Shown: positions 12,491 to 20,583 of the stretch, piece by piece | Layout: each line of letters opens with the position of its first letter | Position numbering within the stretch: position 1 is the first letter of the stretch | Origin: a virus | Length of the DNA stretch: 64,000 nucleotides | IMG/VR virus record: IMGVR_UViG_3300044712_001570 | Span: 24,122 to 88,121 of that record | Strand: one strand, 5' to 3' | Position numbers and translations under genes: made by a program | Notes under the pieces: model-generated | Told to the model about the DNA's origin: nothing | Databases searched by the model: none | Seen by the model: the letters and a program-made list of their open reading frames with translations, nothing else

Positions 12491-15058
12491 ATGCGAACTA
12501 TTCCTCTCTACCCTAGCAAACCCAAGCTTGCAGTCTGCGATAACTATCCAGCCTTTAGGTGCAACAAAGATTGTGCTAACTGCGATTTATCTACAGGTAC
12601 AACGAATGTATGTTCTCCTCCGGAAGGGGATGCAGGTGGTTTGCTAGTGGTGGGAGGATTCCCATCGATTGAGGATTCAAGAGCAGGTCGACCGTTTACG
12701 AATGCTAATGGTCGACTTGTTAGGACTGCAATAACCAAACACTGGAAAGGTAGGGTGGCATTAGATAATGCTATCAAGTGTCCTCCACCTAGGAAGGATG
12801 GAAAGGTAAAGATCAAGCCCACTTATATAACCTGTTGCAGGCCTTATCTATATTCTACCTTTCAAGATGTTAAACCTACGAGGGTTATCGTGTTAGGTAA
12901 TGATGCAGCAAAGAGTGTAGTTGGTAGGGGAGTACCATCCATAACAGTTCGAAAAGGTTATACATGGTCATTCGAATATGGATGCCCTGTATTCTTTGTT
13001 ATGGACCCAGCATTCGCTATGCATAATGACAGCTACAGGGAGTGGTTCGAGGAGGATATGCAACATGCCTTGACCTGGGCACCACCACCACCTGTATGGG
13101 ATGCACGTGCTGGCTTAGTGGAATCGGAGCAGGATGCCAAAGAAGCACTCGAGGTTCTAGCGACAGCAGATTGGGTATCGTTCGACGTAGAAGCTGCTGG
13201 ACTAATGTTCAACGCTAGCTATCGGCTATTGAGTGCAAGCTTTACTGCAAAGGTTGATAATAACCTTGAGACATTCGTCTGGACTAGCAGAGGACTTAAT
13301 ACCGCATTCAATGCGTATAAAAAGATTCTAGAAAGTAGTATACCTAAAGTAGGAGCTAACATTAGGTACGATGGGTTAGCAAACCAAGTACTATATGGTA
13401 TACATCTTAATAACATTATTAGTGATGTTAGGTTGGAAGCTAAGCTACTTGATGCAGAGTGTAGTGGTAAGCTCGAAGCTTTAGCAGAACGAGTAGGAAT
13501 GGGAGGCTGTAAAGAAGAACAAGAAGCTGCAATGCTAGCAGGTGTAAATAAAGTAAACGCTATACTTCGTTCTGTTAGAACTAAAGGCGCTAATGAGTTT
13601 AACTTAGGTTTACTTAGAGCCCAAGGTATAGATGATAAGCTTTATCCAGTAGTAAATGGACCTTATGATTATGAAGCCGAAAGATGGTCATATGCAGTAG
13701 TAGAAAAGAATCAACTGTATTCCTATAATGCGAGGGATACCTTAGCTACTGCTTTGGTAAAGGATTCAATCCAACCTCAGATGGAAGCTAATGAAGCTCT
13801 TAGTACTGTATGGAATGATATAGTACTACCAGCTAATGAAGCTTTCCAATGGGTTGAGTACTGGGGCTTTGGTGTATCTATACCTGATATCATGGCCTTT
13901 AGCGCTTCACTGGACAATGATATAGCACAGGCGGAAGAAAAGCTTAATGAGATTGCTAATCGTATAGGCTGCCGTAATGTGAACTGGAGGAGTGCAGCAC
14001 AGGTAGGGCCTATACTATTCGATAAGCTTAAGTTACCTGTTATTGAATATACCAATGATAATGAAGATACGTATGCTACAGGTGGTGATGTATTAGAAGC
14101 GTTAGTAGGTAAGCACGCTATTATAGAGCATCTATTAGCCTTTCGTAAGGCAGATAAGCTTCAATACTTTGGTTCTGGTATGCTACCTCATGTCAGAGAG
14201 GATAGTAGGATACATACAAGCATCTTATTGGATGGTGCCCGTAGTGGCCGTTCCTCTTCTATTAAGCCAAACCTTCAAAATATTCCTAAGATTGCAAGGA
14301 AGTACTTCGTAGCCTCCCCAGGTAATCTATTAGTACAGCTTGACTATAAGCAACTCGAACTAGTCATAGCCGCTATGGTTTCTGGTGACCCTGAGATGTG
14401 TCGAATCTTTAGGGAGGGGATAGACTTCCATAGGTTTACTGCAAACGTTGTTAGTCAGCTTATGTGGGGTATTCCACCAGAAGCCGTAACAGGAGACCAT
14501 CGAAGTAAGGTCAAGCCAGTAGTATTCGGTAAGTTATACGGCAAGACAGATGAAACCCTAGCTAAAGACCTTGGGTGTTCTGTTGCAACGGCTAGAAAGG
14601 TTATAGGTAGTATATTCGATAAGTTCAGTATCCTTAACCGATGGTGCAAGGACATTCAAAGGGAGGCTACACGAACAGGGGTTACTCATACCTATTGGAA
14701 TAAAAAGAAAGCTCGTATGAGGTGCTTGCCACATATAACAAGCAATATGAAGGGGTTAAGGATAACAGCGGAGAACGGTAGCTATAATACTCCTATTCAA
14801 GGTACTGCTAACGACTTCCTATTAGTAAGCCTTGTACAGATAATAAGACGCATATTGCAGGATAAACTACCTGCTAGGGTATGCATAACGGTGCATGACT
14901 CTATAGTGATGGAGGTGGAGCAGTCGCAAGCTTATGATGTAGCTCGCATGGCTAAGAAGATTATGGAATCACAACCAAGTGCAGGAGCAGATGTCCCTTT
15001 GACAGCAGAAGTTGAGATAGGTCAAAGCTGGGGTCAACTAGTAAAGGTAAACCTATAA
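12491..15058 (+). CDS. polA: Family A DNA polymerase with N-terminal family-4 UDG-like domain and 3'-5' exonuclease
   Basis: CANCDL/KCPPP/CCRPYL Fe-S Cys pattern; exo FDVE, NIRYD, YNARD; pol NLQNIP, DYKQLE, KPVVFGKLYG, IQGTA, VHDS. Confidence 0.93.
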   Translation: MRTIPLYPSKPKLAVCDNYPAFRCNKDCANCDLSTGTTNVCSPPEGDAGGLLVVGGFPSIEDSRAGRPFTNANGRLVRTAITKHWKGRVALDNAIKCPPPRKDGKVKIKPTYITCCRPYLYSTFQDVKPTRVIVLGNDAAKSVVGRGVPSITVRKGYTWSFEYGCPVFFVMDPAFAMHNDSYREWFEEDMQHALTWAPPPPVWDARAGLVESEQDAKEALEVLATADWVSFDVEAAGLMFNASYRLLSASFTAKVDNNLETFVWTSRGLNTAFNAYKKILESSIPKVGANIRYDGLANQVLYGIHLNNIISDVRLEAKLLDAECSGKLEALAERVGMGGCKEEQEAAMLAGVNKVNAILRSVRTKGANEFNLGLLRAQGIDDKLYPVVNGPYDYEAERWSYAVVEKNQLYSYNARDTLATALVKDSIQPQMEANEALSTVWNDIVLPANEAFQWVEYWGFGVSIPDIMAFSASLDNDIAQAEEKLNEIANRIGCRNVNWRSAAQVGPILFDKLKLPVIEYTNDNEDTYATGGDVLEALVGKHAIIEHLLAFRKADKLQYFGSGMLPHVREDSRIHTSILLDGARSGRSSSIKPNLQNIPKIARKYFVASPGNLLVQLDYKQLELVIAAMVSGDPEMCRIFREGIDFHRFTANVVSQLMWGIPPEAVTGDHRSKVKPVVFGKLYGKTDETLAKDLGCSVATARKVIGSIFDKFSILNRWCKDIQREATRTGVTHTYWNKKKARMRCLPHITSNMKGLRITAENGSYNTPIQGTANDFLLVSLVQIIRRILQDKLPARVCITVHDSIVMEVEQSQAYDVARMAKKIMESQPSAGADVPLTAEVEIGQSWGQLVKVNL

Positions 15059-15327
15059 TGTATAAGATATGCATCCTATTATTAGTATTACAAGCATGTG
15101 GAGGTAATGTATCCCATGAATGCTTGCAGTTAGGTAACCCTCATGGCTTAGCAGAAGGTTGTCAAGCTAGGGCTTGGGTTATTGATGAAAACCTTCCTGC
15201 CCCATCATGTATCGAAGTAAAGGGGCAATCTCTACTTGTAGAGCGAATGGATAATGCTCCTTTATATACTGGTACTTGTTCCCTTTGGTCCTATCCACAA
15301 TCAATAGTAGTTGAGGTTAAACCATGA
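15058..15327 (+). CDS. Small putative lipoprotein
   Basis: MYKICILLLVLQAC lipobox-like signal; TAATG coupling. Confidence 0.6.
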   Translation: MYKICILLLVLQACGGNVSHECLQLGNPHGLAEGCQARAWVIDENLPAPSCIEVKGQSLLVERMDNAPLYTGTCSLWSYPQSIVVEVKP

Positions 15328-15770
15328 ATCATATCGAAGAAGTAGTCACAGTAAAGGAAGCAACCTCTATTGATAATAACCAACTAAACGAAGAGTTTAT
15401 ACGTTTACCATCCGATCTATCCTACTTCTCTAACCTATATGCAGAAGCATGTGATGCATCTGCAAGGGCTAAGCTTTTGAAGGAGATGGCAGAAGCAGCT
15501 GTAGTACAAGAGCTACGTAGTACTAATGATAAGATAAATGTGGATATGGTTAAAGCTCTTGTTACTTTAGATGAAACAGTAGAAGCAAGTCGGCGCAATC
15601 TTATAACAGCAGAAACAAATGAAGTTCGATTGAAAGGAGTATGTGACGCTATACGAGCTAAGAAGGATATGTTAGTCTCTATTGGTGCAAACATTAGAGC
15701 GGAGTCTGAAGGTAGTCCACTAATAAGACAACAATCCCGTGCAATGCGGGAGAGTGAATCGGATAGGTAG
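15324..15770 (+). CDS. UvsY-like recombination mediator
   Basis: Helical; IDNNQLNEE...DAIRAKKDML resembles the T4 UvsY pattern; next to gp32-like SSB. Confidence 0.6.
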   Translation: MNHIEEVVTVKEATSIDNNQLNEEFIRLPSDLSYFSNLYAEACDASARAKLLKEMAEAAVVQELRSTNDKINVDMVKALVTLDETVEASRRNLITAETNEVRLKGVCDAIRAKKDMLVSIGANIRAESEGSPLIRQQSRAMRESESDR

Positions 15771-15837
15771 CCCAATAGGTTAGGGTCCTCGGCTCATAAC
15801 CGAGTTAGTGCGGGTTCGAGTCCCGCCCTATCCACCA
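15761..15837 (+). tRNA. tRNA with CAT anticodon (Ile2 or elongator Met)
   Basis: Cloverleaf: GGATAGG/CCTATCC, D arm GCCC/GGGT, CTCGG-CTCATAA-CCGAG, GCGGG-TTCGAGT-CCCGC, ACCA end; G1:C72 is paired, so not initiator. Confidence 0.95.
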
Positions 15838-15877: not shown

Positions 15878-16666
15878 ATGGCAAGTAATCTAGTTAAATG
15901 GGGTTCGTTTGATATTGGTGTTGCAGAGGAAGAACGCAAAGCTGTTGATGCAGAAACAGCCTCAACCAGTGTATACATTACCCTAAAGGAGGGGGATACT
16001 ACTGTTAGGTTTCTTCCACCTCCTGTTGGGGTACAGAATCCCTTTATGCGAACGCATAGACACTTTATCCGTCTAGCTAACCTTGAGCATCCAGTGGTCT
16101 TTAACTGCCCCCGTATGCTAGCCAAACAACCCTGCCCCGTATGTGAGCAGGTAGATAAGCTAAAAGCTTCTGGTAATCGTGCGGATTACAAGAAGGCAGG
16201 TAGTTTCCTCCCTCGGTTATATATCTTTGCCAATGTCATTGATAGAGCCCAGGAAGAACGGGGGCCTCTTATTCTTCGGTTTGGAAAGACTATATTCGAT
16301 CAACTCATGGAGATTCGTACTGACCTCAAGAAGGGTGGTGACTATACTAATCCAGAAGAGGAAGGGTTTGATATTATCATTACTCGCAAGGGTAGTGGGA
16401 TGCAGGATACCGAATACTCGGTATATCCATGCAAACGCAACTCCGAGCTAGGTGATCTATCTTGGATTGATAAGCAACACAATCTAGTCAAGGAACGTGA
16501 AGTCCTTACCTATGACGAGATTGTGGATATGCTTAAGGGTGAAAATAATGACAATGAACGTTCATCTAATAGGCGTGAAGCTGCGGGTGGACGAGGAAGA
16601 GGAGGTGGTAGAGGACGAAGTGTTCAGGATGATGCACAAGATGCTGAAGTTTGGGATGCAGATTAA
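15878..16666 (+). CDS. gp32-like single-stranded DNA-binding protein
   Basis: VRFLPP, CP...CPVCE zinc motif, GFDIIITRKG, RGG tract, acidic C-terminus. Confidence 0.85.
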   Translation: MASNLVKWGSFDIGVAEEERKAVDAETASTSVYITLKEGDTTVRFLPPPVGVQNPFMRTHRHFIRLANLEHPVVFNCPRMLAKQPCPVCEQVDKLKASGNRADYKKAGSFLPRLYIFANVIDRAQEERGPLILRFGKTIFDQLMEIRTDLKKGGDYTNPEEEGFDIIITRKGSGMQDTEYSVYPCKRNSELGDLSWIDKQHNLVKEREVLTYDEIVDMLKGENNDNERSSNRREAAGGRGRGGGRGRSVQDDAQDAEVWDAD

Positions 16667-16680
16667 CTAGTTTTTTAGCC

Positions 16681-16703
16681 GTCTCCTCTGCTCGAGAGGA
16701 GAC
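16681..16703 (+). other. Perfect 9-bp hairpin after the SSB gene
   Basis: GTCTCCTCT-GCTCG-AGAGGAGAC; no downstream U tract. Confidence 0.5.
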
Positions 16704-16720
16704 AATGGAAGGAATATAAC

Positions 16721-16834
16721 ATGTACAGAATGTTGAAAGCATTGCACGCTATAATGTATAAACCAACAATAAGTTGGTATACCGTTATAGTGGTATGCGT
16801 AGTTCATGAGTTCATATCATTATATAAAACATAG
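16721..16834 (+). CDS. Putative 37-aa hydrophobic peptide
   Basis: SD GGAAGGA; MYRMLKALHAIMYKPTISWYTVIVVCVVHEFISLYKT. Confidence 0.45.
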   Translation: MYRMLKALHAIMYKPTISWYTVIVVCVVHEFISLYKT

Positions 16835-16860
16835 GTAGTTGGCCGGTGAGAGCCGGCTTA

Positions 16861-16986
16861 GGAGTGGCTTGGTGCACAGATAGTTTGGCTAGCATGAACA
16901 TGACATGGATTCCCCACACGCCCTTCCCCACCCGTGTGGCCTAGCTAAACATCTGATAGAGGGTTCGATTCCTTCTCACTCCACGA
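16861..16986 (+). ncRNA. tRNA-like / minimal tmRNA-like RNA
   Basis: Acceptor GGAGTGG/TCACTCC-A, stemless D-loop with GG, 5+10-bp helix, 3-nt linker, T arm GAGGG-TTCGATT-CCTTC. Confidence 0.8.
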
Positions 16987-16995
16987 GGTAAATAC

Positions 16996-17262
16996 ATGGG
17001 TAATCCACTCAAAAGATACGTAAAGGTTGAAGTCCTTGTTAGCGCATCTGGTAAGGGTAAGAAGTGCCACGAATCTTGCCCTTACCTAAACCGAATGATA
17101 GATGAGTTAGAAGGTACTCGTTCAAAGAGTTGTTTATTATTTGATTCACCTTTATCTATATCCGGTAATAATAGTGACATTATGCGTTGTCCAGAATGTG
17201 TACAAGAAGCAGTAATAATAGATGTTAATAGATTAAAAACAGAATCAAAGGAAAAGCCATGA
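16996..17262 (+). CDS. Small Cys-rich protein
   Basis: CHESCPYL...CLLFD...RCPEC; SD GAGGT. Confidence 0.7.
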   Translation: MGNPLKRYVKVEVLVSASGKGKKCHESCPYLNRMIDELEGTRSKSCLLFDSPLSISGNNSDIMRCPECVQEAVIIDVNRLKTESKEKP

Positions 17263-18392
17263 AGATTGCATTCTTTGGTGACGTTCACCTAGGCAACCAT
17301 AAAAGGGCAGGAGGAGAGATACTTGCGGGGCTCAATGCAAGGTGCCTGCAAAGCCTTCGAGCCTTTAGGAAAGCTATAACCCTATGTATTGACCAGGGTT
17401 GTAAGATAGCGGTTATTACAGGTGACCTATTCGATTATGATAGGCCAGAGGCTCAACTTATAACCAAGGTGCAAGAGATACTTGCTAGCATTCCACCTGA
17501 CTTCGTTATCTATTGTATGGTAGGTAACCACGACCAAAGAAGCGAGCTTATAGGGGACCATGCACTTGGTCCTATAAGTGGGTTAGTACAGGTTATAGAT
17601 CAACCCTATTCAACCTTGATCACAGTTGATACTGTTAATGGTAAACCATTTAATGCAGTATTAGATATTATACCTTTTACATCTAAGCCTGCTATAGATG
17701 CTTTGCAGGAGTACCAAGTAGCAAGGAGTAAGTCTCCTTACCCTGCTAACCTCCCTAGGGTACTTGCAATGCACTTTGGTTTACAAACGAAAGATATAAC
17801 ACCACCTTGGCTATTAGATGCAAAGGATGGTGTTAATGTAGAACGAGTACTTCTACCAATGTGTCAGAAGTATAACATAGCAGCAGTCTTTGCTGGTCAT
17901 TACCATTCAGGGGGTCAGCATACTATTCCTGATAGTTTACCTATAGCTACTCAATGTGGTGCTTTGGTACCAACCGGATGGGACAACCCAGGTGCAGGCT
18001 ATGGTAATGTATGGATACTGGATATACAAGGGGAAGGTATAGATGCAACTCTCCATAGAGTACCAGGTCCTAGGTTTCTATCTGATATGGATGATGTTAG
18101 GTTATGTAATGAGGATGATAATATCTATCTATCAGTTATAGGTGAGAACCAAGATAGTATTCGAGATATGGTTAGTACTGGTAAACTAGCTTATGGTGAA
18201 GTTCTACCAGCGGTATCTAAGACTAAGCTACAGGATGGTCTTAATAAGACTAAAGGTCTTGTTACTATTGATATAGCCATAAAAGACTTTATCGAACGAT
18301 GGTATGGCGATACCACCACTCTTCCACCAGGAATAACCAAGGAAGCTATAACCAGTAGGGTACGTAAATACCTAGCAGGAGCACAGTCATGA
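17259..18392 (+). CDS. sbcD: SbcD/Mre11-like metallophosphoesterase nuclease
   Basis: GDVHLG, TGDLFD, GNHD, AGHYH motifs. Confidence 0.92.
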   Translation: MKIAFFGDVHLGNHKRAGGEILAGLNARCLQSLRAFRKAITLCIDQGCKIAVITGDLFDYDRPEAQLITKVQEILASIPPDFVIYCMVGNHDQRSELIGDHALGPISGLVQVIDQPYSTLITVDTVNGKPFNAVLDIIPFTSKPAIDALQEYQVARSKSPYPANLPRVLAMHFGLQTKDITPPWLLDAKDGVNVERVLLPMCQKYNIAAVFAGHYHSGGQHTIPDSLPIATQCGALVPTGWDNPGAGYGNVWILDIQGEGIDATLHRVPGPRFLSDMDDVRLCNEDDNIYLSVIGENQDSIRDMVSTGKLAYGEVLPAVSKTKLQDGLNKTKGLVTIDIAIKDFIERWYGDTTTLPPGITKEAITSRVRKYLAGAQS

Positions 18393-20050
18393 TAACTGTA
18401 TCGAAGGTGGTCATTGAGAAGTTTATGAATCATAAGAAGACCACTCTTACCTTTCCATCAACAGGTCTAATAGTAATAACAGGGCCTAATGGAGCAGGAA
18501 AGAGTTCCTGCCTGGAAGCTATATCCTTTTGCTTATGGGGAAAGACCCTACGGGGTACAGACCCATGGCCTAGTGATGATGGTGGAAGAATATTGGTACA
18601 GTTAGCTAATGGTATGTGGGTAGAGAGAAACCAGACTAAAAGCATTAAGGGTAGGGTGCTCTTTGCAGGAGGAAGAAACGAAGACCCTATATCCTTTGCT
18701 ACTATGACTAAGGCTCAAGAAACCCTTGATTCAAAGCTATGTAGTTTTGATTGCTGGAGTAAGTCCAGTATCTTTTCCTCTGCAGATGCAGCTACCTATT
18801 CCGATGCTACTGACATGGAGCGAAAGCTTCTCCTGGAGGGTATCATAGGTTTGGATGGTTGCTCCAATGCCCATGAGTTATGTAAGGCAGACCTTAAGAG
18901 TACCAGGCCTCAACTCATGTCTGCCGATAGTAGGGTTGCATTGGTGCAATCTAAGATTGACCTAGCTAATCAACAAGTTAGGGCAGCAAGTACTAGATTA
19001 GAGGAATGTTCGAGAAGTGCACCACAATCTGCAACATTGGAAGCTACTAAGGCCAAACTTGCAAAGCAACAGGAATCTATGCGCAAGTTAGAGCGACAGA
19101 TTGAACATGACACTAACGTTCATTCAGAGATGCAAGCTAGGGTATACAAGGCTCAGTTTCTAGTTAAGAACACTAAAGCTTCTTTAGATGCAGCAACCAA
19201 ACAACAGTGTGAAGCTTGTGGGCAAACCATAGTAACCGATAGTACTAAGATAAAGAACTTACAGGATGCACTTGCTGCTAGTACTTCAGAGCTTGAATCT
19301 CTTCTAGTATTAGAGCAGGAGATTAAAGGTGAGATACCCTATAACAAGGAGCTTCGTGCAGAACTAAAGGTATCGATCGATAAGCTATTGGTTGATTACT
19401 ATAAGCTTTCAGAGTTGGAAGCTGTTAGTTCAAGTGCGAAGGCAGAACACCAAGCTGCACTCGATAGGGCTAATATTCTTCTCTTAGAGAGTCAAGAGGC
19501 CTTAAAGATTGCTCAAGAGGATGTAGAGCGGGTAAAGGCAGAGATAGCCTTGATTGAGTGTGCGGAAAAGGTATTAGGGATAAAGGGGGTACGAGCTACA
19601 ATACTAAGCAATGCCCTGCCTGGTTTGGAGGAGGTAACCAATACATGGCTATCTCAGTTGAACCCAGGTGTAAGTGTTAGGCTAACTCCTACTGAGAAGA
19701 ATGGAGTTATAGAGGCGGTACCATTAGATATTAATGGTGTTAATGGTAAAGGCTATAAGAGCACATCCGGCGGTGAAAGGAGAAGGTTAGATGTAGCCTT
19801 AGTGCTAGGGCTAGCAGAGATGGCTAGTGGTGTAACTATTAGGGATACCAATAGCACTCTATTCTTCGATGAGGTTGCAGACTCCCTAGACAAGGACGGT
19901 CTCATAGCAACTGCTCGAATATTCCATGCATTAGCTACTACAAGGTGCGTTGTATTGATAACCCACAGGGAAGAGTTATTGGACCAGTTGCAACCTAAAG
20001 AGCACTGGAAAGTTATGAACGGCTCTGTAACAGTTGAAAGGAAGTGGTAA
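18389..20050 (+). CDS. sbcC: SbcC/Rad50-like ATPase
   Basis: GPNGAGKS, coiled coil with CEAC zinc hook, SGGE signature, FFDE, ITH. Confidence 0.93.
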   Translation: MITVSKVVIEKFMNHKKTTLTFPSTGLIVITGPNGAGKSSCLEAISFCLWGKTLRGTDPWPSDDGGRILVQLANGMWVERNQTKSIKGRVLFAGGRNEDPISFATMTKAQETLDSKLCSFDCWSKSSIFSSADAATYSDATDMERKLLLEGIIGLDGCSNAHELCKADLKSTRPQLMSADSRVALVQSKIDLANQQVRAASTRLEECSRSAPQSATLEATKAKLAKQQESMRKLERQIEHDTNVHSEMQARVYKAQFLVKNTKASLDAATKQQCEACGQTIVTDSTKIKNLQDALAASTSELESLLVLEQEIKGEIPYNKELRAELKVSIDKLLVDYYKLSELEAVSSSAKAEHQAALDRANILLLESQEALKIAQEDVERVKAEIALIECAEKVLGIKGVRATILSNALPGLEEVTNTWLSQLNPGVSVRLTPTEKNGVIEAVPLDINGVNGKGYKSTSGGERRRLDVALVLGLAEMASGVTIRDTNSTLFFDEVADSLDKDGLIATARIFHALATTRCVVLITHREELLDQLQPKEHWKVMNGSVTVERKW

Positions 20051-20052
20051 CC

Positions 20053-20583
20053 ATGTTATCCGATATTTTATTGTATGTAGTTGTATTTGGATTAATTATT
20101 GTTGCGTATATATCAGGGAGGAGCTGTGTACGCCCTATAAAGGATGGTTTTGATAAAAGCCATCTATATCAACACGCCAAAGCTGAACTAAAAGACTATA
20201 GTATTGAGTCTAATAACGAGGTGCTTGAGCTTTTGAGGGTATTTTATAACCAAGGCCATTCTGGTTGTTCTGCGTCATTTGTAACGGAACAGTTTTATAA
20301 ACTCGCAAAATTCCAGCCGTTGCGCCCATTAACTGGTGAAGATAGTGAATGGATTGATGTAACTCCTGACCATTTTCAAAATAATCGATGCAGTGGTGTG
20401 TTTAAAAATAAAAAGACAGGCATTGCGTACTTTTTAGATGGTAGGGTGTTCAAAGATAAAACAGGAGCATCCTATACTTGCTCTGCATCGAAAACCCCAA
20501 TTACATTCCCATGTTATCCAAAAACTGAGTATATGGATCGCGAGGCAACAGAAGAGGAAAGAATCGAAGGTTGTAAGCTATAA
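20053..20583 (+). CDS. Hypothetical protein with N-terminal TM helix (ORF track start 20044)
   Basis: GHSGCSA, PLTGEDSEW and FQNNRCS motifs recognised from other phage hypotheticals. Confidence 0.7.
   Translation: MLSDILLYVVVFGLIIVAYISGRSCVRPIKDGFDKSHLYQHAKAELKDYSIESNNEVLELLRVFYNQGHSGCSASFVTEQFYKLAKFQPLRPLTGEDSEWIDVTPDHFQNNRCSGVFKNKKTGIAYFLDGRVFKDKTGASYTCSASKTPITFPCYPKTEYMDREATEEERIEGCKL

What the first reader, a model, noticed from the sequence alone, without database searches (positions are those of the whole stretch)
16861..16986. ~125-nt minimal tmRNA-like RNA whose loop is exactly filled by a 16-codon tag-like frame
Seen: acceptor stem GGAGTGG(16861-67)/TCACTCC(16976-82) with discriminator A; a 9-nt stemless D-loop containing GG; helix CAGAT-(A bulge)-GTTTGGCTAG paired with CTAGCTAAAC-ATCTG; a 3-nt linker; and a canonical T arm with TTCGATT. 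Established: a D-stemless tRNA-like domain with a long helix replacing the anticodon arm is the tmRNA architecture. Seen: the enclosed loop holds an open frame 16894-16944 (MNMTWIPHTPFPTRVA-stop) that starts at one helix strand, stops in the other, and folds into a CCACACG/CGTGTGG hairpin with a C-rich loop. It differs from tmRNA in being about one third the size, with no pseudoknots, A3-U70 instead of G3:U70, and CGA in place of CCA (the GA begins the next gene's SD). Inference: a phage-encoded ribosome-rescue RNA, an SmpB decoy, or a tRNA-mimic sRNA whose CCUUCC loop could pair with GGAAGG SD sequences.
Basis: partly seen in the sequence, partly recalled or inferred. Interest (0 to 1): 0.9.

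Follow-up and report, generated by a model that had tools for sequence, protein, structure and literature searches.

The report
Anticodon-less tRNA-shaped RNA in a phage
A soil phage carries a 123-base gene-like element that keeps the upper half of a tyrosine tRNA but has a long branched hairpin where the anticodon should be; it resembles the unexplained "tRNA-like stable RNAs" of phages T4 and T5 more than the ribosome-rescue RNA tmRNA, and it has no relatives in the databases.

Summary
The described fold is in the sequence at 16861-16983(+), and it is not chance. A descriptor for "T arm abutting a 7-bp acceptor stem" hits only this element and the phage's tRNA-Met in 88 kb, against 0.023 expected. 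The tmRNA reading fails where it could be tested. The element has A3-U70, not G3-U70. ARAGORN does not call it, and no tmRNA or tRNA model in Rfam matches. No pseudoknots are seen, and the 16-codon frame is not statistically notable. Its last 22 bases match exactly only two tRNA-Tyr(GUA) genes among 185,579 species genomes, and GGAGTG plus the TGGTGC D-loop are shared as well. It is therefore most likely a tRNA-Tyr derivative that lost its D stem and whose anticodon and variable arms were replaced by a 79-nt, strongly structured branched arm. My best reading is a tRNA-framed small RNA, cut from the SSB/nuclease operon transcript by RNase P and RNase Z. That is inference only: no homolog, covariation or RNA data could be obtained. 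The closest known kind is the set of phage tRNA-like stable RNAs (T4 rnaC, T5 RNA1). Unchecked notes from this scan describe similar anticodon-less tRNA-framed phage RNAs on other DNA, but none is similar in sequence. Interest is moderate.

The parts
16841..16858 (+). Short G+C hairpin in the 5' leader, ending 2 nt before G1 of the element
   Evidence: MFE fold of 16840-16989
16861..16867 (+). Acceptor stem, 5' strand (GGAGTGG)
   Evidence: Pairs with 16976-16982. GGAGTG is shared with two tRNA-Tyr genes.
16868..16876 (+). 9-nt D-replacement loop CTTGGTGCA. It has no D stem but keeps a GG. TGGTGC equals the D-loop/3' D-stem of the L096 tRNA-Tyr.
16877..16955 (+). 79-nt branched arm replacing the anticodon and variable arms. 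It comprises a 5-bp helix, a bulged A16882 and a 10-bp helix (16883-92/16941-50), then hairpin 1 (16893-16907, 7-nt loop AACAUGA) and hairpin 2 (16914-16939, 7 bp, 12-nt C-rich loop 16921-16932).
   Evidence: z -4.58 alone
16894..16944 (+). It lies in the same frame as a longer ORF starting at GTG 16846, and I do not consider it a gene.
16956..16958 (+). 3-nt linker ATA in the variable-region position
16959..16975 (+). T arm GAGGG-TTCGATT-CCTTC, with a canonical T loop and G53-C61
16976..16983 (+). Acceptor stem 3' strand TCACTCC plus discriminator A. Bases 16962-16983 are identical to the 3' end of two tRNA-Tyr(GUA) genes.
16984..16998 (+). CGA in place of CCA, overlapping the SD (GAGG) and followed by the ATG of the 88-aa ORF 16996-17262
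15761..15837 (+). Genuine tRNA-Met(CAU) with encoded CCA. Its 5' end overlaps the stop codon of ORF 15324-15770. Together with the element it brackets the gp32-like SSB gene (15878-16666).

Best explanation
This is a phage gene for a tRNA-framed small RNA descended from a tRNA-Tyr gene. The acceptor stem, T arm and a GG-containing D-replacement loop are kept intact. These form the tRNA 'top half', which is all that RNase P, RNase Z and the CCA-adding enzyme need to recognise a substrate (established knowledge). The D stem is lost, and the anticodon and variable arms are replaced by a 79-nt branched arm ending in a 7-bp hairpin with a 12-nt C-rich loop.

The element has no promoter or terminator of its own. 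It is probably transcribed with the SSB gene upstream and the 88-aa, Mre11-like and Rad50-like genes downstream. Host tRNA-processing enzymes would then cut it out at G16861 and after A16983, releasing a stable RNA of about 123 nt whose working part is the branched arm. The same cuts would separate the SSB message from the nuclease operon and leave the downstream mRNA starting 2 nt before its SD.

Shown: the fold, its non-randomness, and its tRNA-Tyr ancestry. Inferred: transcription, processing, stability and any trans-acting role.
For: - The anatomy and thermodynamics are confirmed.
- The top-half descriptor hits only the true tRNA-Met and this element in 88 kb, against 0.023 expected.
- The 22-nt 3' end matches exactly only two tRNA-Tyr(GUA) genes among 185,579 species genomes. 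GGAGTG and TGGTGC are shared at the 5' side.
- The differences from those tRNAs in the acceptor and T stems are all A-U/G-U exchanges that keep pairing.
- The interior is far more stable than shuffles (z -4.6), which is not expected of random decay.
- The element is 53% G+C in a 44% G+C genome.
- It is on the same strand as all neighbouring genes. No sigma-70-like promoter or terminator lies between the SSB gene and the next ORF.
- Precedents exist in annotated tRNA-like stable RNAs of unknown function. T4 rnaC has a T arm (CCGGG-UUCGAAU-CCCGG) with long hairpins instead of a cloverleaf. T5 RNA1 is annotated as 'tRNA-like stable RNA'.
- Engineered tRNA scaffolds show that an RNA placed in a tRNA anticodon stem is processed and stabilised in E. 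coli (PMC3753655).
Against: - There is a single instance and no homolog anywhere searched, so no covariation and no evidence of selection beyond the intact pairing.
- There are no RNA data.
- The hairpin 2 nt upstream of G1 could hinder RNase P.
- CCA is not encoded here, although the phage's real tRNA-Met encodes it.
- No target for the C-rich loop was found.
- Ten related whole phage records and 80 related loci lack anything similar. The element is therefore dispensable for this phage group.
Confidence: 0.4

Rival explanations
1. It is a decaying tRNA-Tyr pseudogene. A phage-borne tRNA-Tyr lost its D stem and took up a small palindromic insertion. The structure is a leftover with no function of its own.
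For: - It is an orphan with no homologs.
- It cannot decode: there is no 7-nt U33 anticodon loop, and ARAGORN does not call it and no Rfam tRNA match is found.
- The long helix arms read as a 15/16-nt inverted repeat, as a small palindromic insert would.
- A second tRNA-like scrap, a T-arm-like hairpin, lies at genome 22459-22527 on the minus strand.
Against: - All 12 top-half pairs are intact, and the 3' 22 nt are identical to functional tRNA-Tyr genes.
- The interior is a branched three-helix fold with z -4.6, not one simple palindrome.
- Phage genomes rarely keep about 125 nt of dead sequence. That last point is inference.
Confidence: 0.25
2. It is purely a cis-acting processing signal. The tRNA-like fold exists only to direct RNase P and RNase Z cuts that, together with the tRNA-Met, release the SSB mRNA and set the 5' end of the nuclease operon mRNA. 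This would be tRNA punctuation as in mitochondria, and the excised RNA would be a by-product.
For: - The tRNA-Met (15761-15837) and the element bracket the gp32-like gene.
- The tRNA-Met overlaps the stop codon of the upstream ORF.
- The element ends 2 nt before the next SD.
- There is no promoter or terminator in between.
Against: A plain tRNA or a minimal acceptor/T-arm hairpin would be enough for that role. This reading does not explain the elaborate 79-nt arm. Relatives with the same gene neighbourhood manage without it.
Confidence: 0.15
3. It is a decoy. The tRNA-Tyr-like top half would titrate a host factor that reads tRNA top halves. Candidates are SmpB (as proposed for TLD-only tmRNA fragments) or a defence nuclease or toxin aimed at tRNA-Tyr or at acceptor stems.
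For: - The TLD-like layout.
- The tmRNA sequence of mycobacteriophage DS6A is little more than the TLD, and such molecules inhibit tmRNA, perhaps by titrating SmpB (PMC4131195).
- Retron Ec78 defence acts through tRNA-Tyr, and T5 counters it with its own tRNA-Tyr (bioRxiv 10.1101/2023.03.15.532788).
- A toxin that selects tRNAs by the acceptor stem is known (PMC11559606).
- An anti-Thoeris Tad3 homolog lies 3 kb downstream.
Against: - No sequence signature of the tmRNA TLD is present: no Rfam hit at E<=10.
- The host and its defences are unknown.
- No partner protein was identified. The neighbouring 88-aa and 37-aa ORFs have no family.
Confidence: 0.12
4. It is a minimal tmRNA. It would be aminoacylated, enter stalled ribosomes and template the tag ...PTRVA.
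For: It has a TLD-like architecture, and an open frame whose stop lies in the 3' strand of the helix.
Against: - A3-U70 rules out the universal alanine identity.
- No tmRNA model matches.
- No pseudoknots are seen, and nearly the whole frame is base-paired.
- The frame extends upstream to 16846 and is not statistically notable.
- The tag does not end in the usual ...AA.
- Ancestry is tRNA-Tyr, not ssrA.
- It is one third the size of any working tmRNA.
Confidence: 0.03

Closest known systems
Phage T4 species 1 RNA (rnaC), and species 2 RNA (rnaD)
   Same: It is a phage-encoded RNA of about 120-140 nt. In rnaC, a canonical T arm and paired termini frame long hairpins instead of a cloverleaf. The function is unknown.
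   Different: There is no sequence similarity: model R1 finds nothing in the T4 locus. The T4 RNAs sit at the end of an eight-tRNA cluster, whereas this element lies between an SSB gene and a nuclease operon, 1 kb from a single tRNA. The acceptor stem here is perfect, while rnaC's is imperfect.
Phage T5 RNA1 (annotated 'tRNA-like stable RNA with unknown functions')
   Same: It has a tRNA-like frame (T arm GAAGG-UUCAACU-CCUUC plus paired ends) around a large structured insert with no anticodon.
   Different: T5 RNA1 keeps a D arm and sits inside a tRNA cluster. R1 does not match it.
tmRNA tRNA-like domain, including the TLD-only sequence of mycobacteriophage DS6A (PMC4131195)
   Same: It has an acceptor stem plus T arm, no D stem, and a long helix leaving where the anticodon stem would be. 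DS6A shows that phages can carry such a reduced molecule.
   Different: It has A3-U70 rather than G3-U70 and no tmRNA sequence signature. Its ancestry is tRNA-Tyr. It has no pseudoknots and no convincing tag frame.
Bacterial tRNA-Tyr(GUA), as in two Sandaracinaceae MAG tRNA arrays (L095 1469-1547; L096 6986-7068 minus)
   Same: The 22 nt from the T loop to the discriminator are identical, and GGAGTG at the 5' end, the TGGTGC D-loop segment and A73 are shared. CCA is not encoded in either.
   Different: Here there is no D stem, no GUA anticodon loop and no long variable arm. A 79-nt branched arm stands in their place. The phage is 44% G+C and those contigs about 60%, so the host link is unproven.
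Engineered tRNA scaffolds for recombinant RNA (PMC3753655)
   Same: A foreign structured RNA is placed on the anticodon stem of a tRNA, so that cellular tRNA enzymes process it and it is stabilised.
   Different: That is an artificial design that keeps the D arm. Here the arrangement is natural and has no D arm.

Membership tests
tmRNA (SsrA; Rfam RF00023 and clan) | G3-U70 pair in the acceptor stem (alanine identity) | tested here: not met
   A3-U70
tmRNA (SsrA; Rfam RF00023 and clan) | Recognised by tmRNA covariance models or ARAGORN | tested here: not met
   No Rfam match at the gathering score or at E<=10. ARAGORN gives no tmRNA call at default settings, and only noise across the genome at a lowered threshold.
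tmRNA (SsrA; Rfam RF00023 and clan) | tRNA-like domain: acceptor plus T arm, stemless D loop, long helix in place of the anticodon arm | tested here: met
tmRNA (SsrA; Rfam RF00023 and clan) | mRNA-like domain with an accessible resume codon, flanking pseudoknot(s), and a tag ending in a hydrophobic ...AA-type signal | tested here: not met
   The 79-nt interior is fully taken up by nested helices. The fold program cannot predict pseudoknots, and none was seen by eye. The frame starts at AUG, ends in RVA, and continues upstream to 16846. Conservation of the frame could not be tested because there are no homologs.
tmRNA (SsrA; Rfam RF00023 and clan) | Aminoacylation, SmpB binding, trans-translation | not testable with these tools
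   No SmpB gene in the record; the host is unknown.
Canonical tRNA (Rfam RF00005) | 7-bp acceptor stem, discriminator, and a 5-bp T stem with a T-loop TTCRANN abutting the acceptor | tested here: met
Canonical tRNA (Rfam RF00005) | D arm and a 5-bp anticodon stem with a 7-nt loop carrying U33 and an anticodon | tested here: not met
   A 9-nt linker stands in place of the D arm. The helix continues for 15 bp and branches. The only 7-nt loop is AACAUGA, with A at position 33.
Canonical tRNA (Rfam RF00005) | Called by ARAGORN or the Rfam tRNA model | tested here: not met
   (also not called with introns allowed or in D-armless mode)
Phage tRNA-like stable RNAs (T4 rnaC, T5 RNA1) | tRNA-like ends and T arm framing a structured core that is not a cloverleaf and has no anticodon | tested here: met
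   This element. T4 rnaC and T5 RNA1 folds.
Phage tRNA-like stable RNAs (T4 rnaC, T5 RNA1) | Sequence or profile similarity to a known member | tested here: not met
   R1 matches neither. This is a resemblance of kind, not a homologous family.
Phage tRNA-like stable RNAs (T4 rnaC, T5 RNA1) | Accumulates as a discrete stable RNA in infected cells | not testable with these tools
   No RNA run holds the sequence.
tRNA-gene fragment / attP core of an integrating element | Only the 3' part of a tRNA is present, next to an integrase gene | tested here: not met
   Both acceptor strands are present. No Phage_integrase match in the 88-kb record, which is 77% complete.

The most novel reading that the evidence does not exclude
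The element is an RNA counter-measure. It would be a tRNA-Tyr-mimicking decoy, cut out by the host's own tRNA enzymes, that soaks up a host factor which reads tRNA top halves. That factor could be SmpB in ribosome rescue, or a defence effector aimed at tRNA-Tyr or at acceptor stems. The C-rich arm would add a second binding surface.
Probability: 0.1. Interest if true: 0.75.

Novelty: new variant of a known kind. Interest (0 to 1): 0.4.

Why it matters
Phages T4 and T5 have carried "tRNA-like stable RNAs" of unknown function for fifty years. This element shows the same design in an unrelated soil phage: a tRNA top half framing a foreign structured arm. Its origin is clear (tRNA-Tyr), and it sits inside a replication/recombination operon rather than a tRNA cluster. 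If it is expressed, it would be a natural version of the laboratory "tRNA scaffold" and one more hint that phages repeatedly turn tRNA genes into non-decoding RNAs. As a single orphan copy with no expression data, it is a lead and not a discovery.

Tried and rejected
**Homolog searches, all empty**
- blastn of 16600-17300 against GenBank phages.
- Four patterns in IMG/VR. The 13 matches were ordinary tRNAs.
- Two patterns in JGI metagenomes. The 6 matches were chance.
- Covariance model R1 over 80 loci encoding Mre11-like relatives and over 10 whole related phage records.
- Close-relative searches with the Mre11-like and gp32-like proteins.
- The best Mre11-like relative among 5.8 billion protein clusters is only 37% identical, so no close kin of this phage is on record.

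- Sequencing runs: two rhizosphere DNA runs hold the stretch, both possible sources. No RNA holder is listed, and no variant letters were seen.

**Readings considered and dropped**
- ARRPOF: a partial Rfam match at 16726-16884 (18.4 bits against a gathering score of 127, E 0.027). ARRPOF is a 255-nt plasmid RNA with a different fold (PMC12990946, PMC5737381), so I treat the match as chance.
- Small ribozymes, introns and Y RNA: no Rfam match. ARAGORN with introns allowed does not call the element.
- Anti-SD idea: 6- and 7-mers complementary to the C-rich loop are scattered, with only a few ahead of plausible starts. No formal enrichment test was made, because the gene starts are uncertain.
- attP: rejected, with no integrase and both tRNA halves present.
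- Host assignment to Sandaracinaceae: not accepted. The phage is 44% G+C and its tRNA-Met is unrelated to the Met genes in those arrays.

Full report
**Where the window comes from.** The window is bases 24122-88121 of an 88,121-bp IMG/VR virus record, about 77% complete. It is held by two rhizosphere metagenome runs and is 43.9% G+C.

**Gene neighbourhood.** All the following lie on the + strand:
- a family A DNA polymerase (12491-15058);
- two small ORFs;
- a tRNA-Met(CAU) at 15761-15837;
- a gp32-like SSB (15878-16666);
- a possible 37-aa ORF with a GGAAGG SD (16721-16834);
- the element itself;
- an 88-aa Cys-rich ORF (16996-17262);
- Mre11-like (17259-18392) and Rad50-like (18389-20050) genes;
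- a Tad3 anti-Thoeris homolog (20044-20583).

**Checking the observation.** These are a 7-bp acceptor stem, a 9-nt stemless linker CTTGGTGCA, a helix of 5 bp, a bulged A and 10 bp, the ATA linker, a T arm with the loop TTCGATT, and discriminator A followed by CGA.

The MFE fold reproduces this structure at -44.9 kcal/mol, with z -3.4. The 79-nt interior alone has z -4.6, with 0 of 200 shuffles as stable. The interior is branched. Besides the CCACACG/CGUGUGG hairpin with its 12-nt C-rich loop, there is a 4-bp hairpin with the 7-nt loop AACAUGA.

I wrote a descriptor for the tRNA top half: T loop TTCRANN, a 5-bp T stem with G53-C61, directly abutting a 7-bp acceptor stem with at most one G-U, over a span of 60-220 nt. 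It finds exactly two sites in the whole record, the genuine tRNA-Met and this element. In 300 first-order Markov simulations of the genome, the mean was 0.023 sites. The tRNA-like frame is therefore not chance.

**The 16-codon frame.** The frame is real but carries little weight. It is in frame with a longer ORF from GTG 16846. A stop-free run of 16 codons has a prior of about 0.46.

**What the detectors say.**
- ARAGORN does not call the element as a tRNA or tmRNA. This holds with introns allowed and in the mode that tolerates missing D arms.
- Rfam 15 gives only the tRNA-Met at gathering scores.
- At E<=10 on a 451-nt slice, Rfam gives no tRNA, tmRNA, Y RNA, ribozyme or intron match.
- The only oddity is a partial ARRPOF match upstream (18.4 bits against a gathering score of 127). 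ARRPOF is a 255-nt plasmid RNA with eight helices and four pseudoknots (PMC12990946), so I regard this match as chance.

**Ancestry.** The last 22 bases, from the T loop through the discriminator, have exact matches in only two of 185,579 species genomes.
- One match is a tRNA-Tyr(GUA) called by ARAGORN in a tRNA array of a Sandaracinaceae MAG (L095 1469-1547).
- The other is the orthologous gene in a second Sandaracinaceae MAG (L096 6986-7068 minus). It reads as a type II tRNA-Tyr(GUA) by eye but has C33, and ARAGORN does not call it.
- Both begin GGAGTGA, against GGAGTGG here. The change turns A7-U66 into G7-U66.
- L096 has the D arm GCCGC-TGGT-GCGGC. The element has TGGTGC, as if the 5' D-stem strand and part of the 3' strand were deleted.
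- The three T-stem 5' strands (GAGGG, GAAGG, GGAGG) differ only by A/G changes opposite U, so pairing is always kept.
- Model R1 scores these two genes at 30 and 27 bits, above any other tRNA seen.

The frame therefore derives from a tRNA-Tyr of this type, not from ssrA. I do not infer the host from this. The phage is 44% G+C and those contigs about 60%, and the phage tRNA-Met is unrelated to the Met genes of those arrays.

**Search for relatives.** None was found.
- The closest Mre11-like protein in 5.8 billion clusters is 37% identical.
- Eighty IMG/VR loci encoding such relatives, with 4 kb of upstream flank, contain no match to R1 beyond ordinary tRNAs, and almost no tRNAs at all.
- Ten whole related phage records give nothing.
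- Pattern scans of IMG/VR and of JGI metagenomes give nothing real. They covered the ends, the D-loop plus T-loop, the long-helix arms and the C-rich hairpin.
- The two DNA runs that hold the stretch show no variant letters, and no RNA run is listed.

**Testing the tmRNA reading.** The layout is that of a tmRNA tRNA-like domain. The defining features that can be read from sequence are not met.
- A3-U70 stands in place of G3-U70.
- No tmRNA model matches.
- Nested helices use up the interior, and no pseudoknot is seen.
- The frame starts at AUG, is almost wholly paired, and ends in RVA.
- The record has no SmpB, no CCA-adding enzyme and no integrase.

A decoy role stays conceivable. Hudson et al. 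report that the tmRNA sequence of mycobacteriophage DS6A is little more than the TLD, and that such molecules inhibit tmRNA, perhaps by titrating SmpB (PMC4131195). Nothing here specifically points to SmpB, however.

**What it most resembles.** The annotated T4 rnaC (species 1 RNA, 139 nt) folds with a canonical T arm (CCGGG-UUCGAAU-CCCGG) and paired ends around long hairpins. T5 RNA1 (144 nt, annotated 'tRNA-like stable RNA with unknown functions') likewise has a T arm and paired ends around a large insert. Neither is similar in sequence to this element. The resemblance is one of kind: phage-encoded, non-decoding, tRNA-framed RNAs.

The design also mirrors engineered tRNA scaffolds, in which an RNA mounted on a tRNA anticodon stem is processed and stabilised by the cell (PMC3753655). 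Unchecked notes from this scan describe several other anticodon-less tRNA-framed phage RNAs on other DNA. None shares sequence words with this one.

**Most likely mechanism.**
- Shown: an intact tRNA top half of tRNA-Tyr origin, with the bottom half replaced by a stable branched arm.
- Established: RNase P, RNase Z and the CCA-adding enzyme recognise the acceptor/T-arm half and the elbow.
- Inferred: the element is co-transcribed with its neighbours, since no sigma-70-like promoter or terminator lies between the SSB gene and the next ORF. It is then cut out at G16861 and after A16983, giving a stable RNA of about 123 nt.

These cuts, together with those at the tRNA-Met that overlaps the upstream stop codon, would also release the SSB message and leave the nuclease operon mRNA starting 2 nt before its SD. 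What the free RNA does is open. The C-rich loop (CCCUUCCCCACC) could pair with G-rich sites, but its complements are not visibly concentrated at gene starts.

**Odds.**
- Processed tRNA-framed small RNA: 0.40.
- Decaying pseudogene with a palindromic insert: 0.25.
- Purely cis-acting punctuation signal: 0.15.
- Decoy: 0.12.
- True mini-tmRNA: 0.03.

**Verdict.** This is a new variant of a known but unexplained kind, not a new class. Interest is moderate (0.4). The structure and ancestry are clean, but it is a single orphan copy with no expression or covariation evidence.

Noticed in passing
L105:2459-2527 (minus strand; genome 22459-22527, about 1.6 kb before the window start): A second tRNA-like scrap: a long hairpin capped by a perfect T-arm look-alike (GGGGG-TTCGAAT-CCCCC), preceded by ATTGGTG. 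It lies just upstream of an SD and ATG on the minus strand. ARAGORN in D-armless mode calls it 'mtRNA-Tyr(gta)', and R1 gives 13.2 bits (E 0.06). Its acceptor stem is poor.
   Followed up: partly
window 15761-15837 and 15324-15770: The 5' end of the genuine tRNA-Met(CAU), which encodes its CCA, overlaps the last 10 nt and the stop codon of the upstream 148-aa ORF. RNase P cleavage at G1 would therefore remove that ORF's stop codon from its mRNA.
   Followed up: partly
genome 23459-24136 (window -662 to 15): With introns allowed, ARAGORN calls a tRNA-Arg(tct) with a 589-nt intron. Rfam finds no tRNA or group I intron there at gathering scores, so it is probably a false positive.
   Followed up: partly
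window 20044-20583: A 179-aa ORF matches Pfam Tad3, the type I Thoeris inhibitor (E 3.7e-30). This places an anti-defence gene directly after the Rad50-like gene.
   Followed up: no
window 16721-16834: A possible 37-aa ORF with a strong GGAAGG SD 7 nt before its ATG, lying between the SSB gene and the element. It matches no family in PHROGs.
   Followed up: partly
window 16726-16884: A partial Rfam ARRPOF match (18.4 bits, E 0.027) caused by the stretch GGUGAGAGCCGGCUUAGGAGUGGCUUGGUG. The score is far below gathering, and I treat it as chance.
   Followed up: partly
L096:6986-7068 (minus strand): The tRNA-Tyr(GUA) in this Sandaracinaceae MAG tRNA array has C33 instead of U33 and a 5-bp D stem with a 4-nt loop. 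ARAGORN does not call it.
   Followed up: no
L086:4532-4590, L087:4026-4084, L089:5687-5745, L092:7293-7351 (minus strands): Four IMG/VR contigs share an identical 59-nt mini tRNA-like sequence, with an acceptor-like stem and a canonical T arm but a very short body.
   Followed up: no
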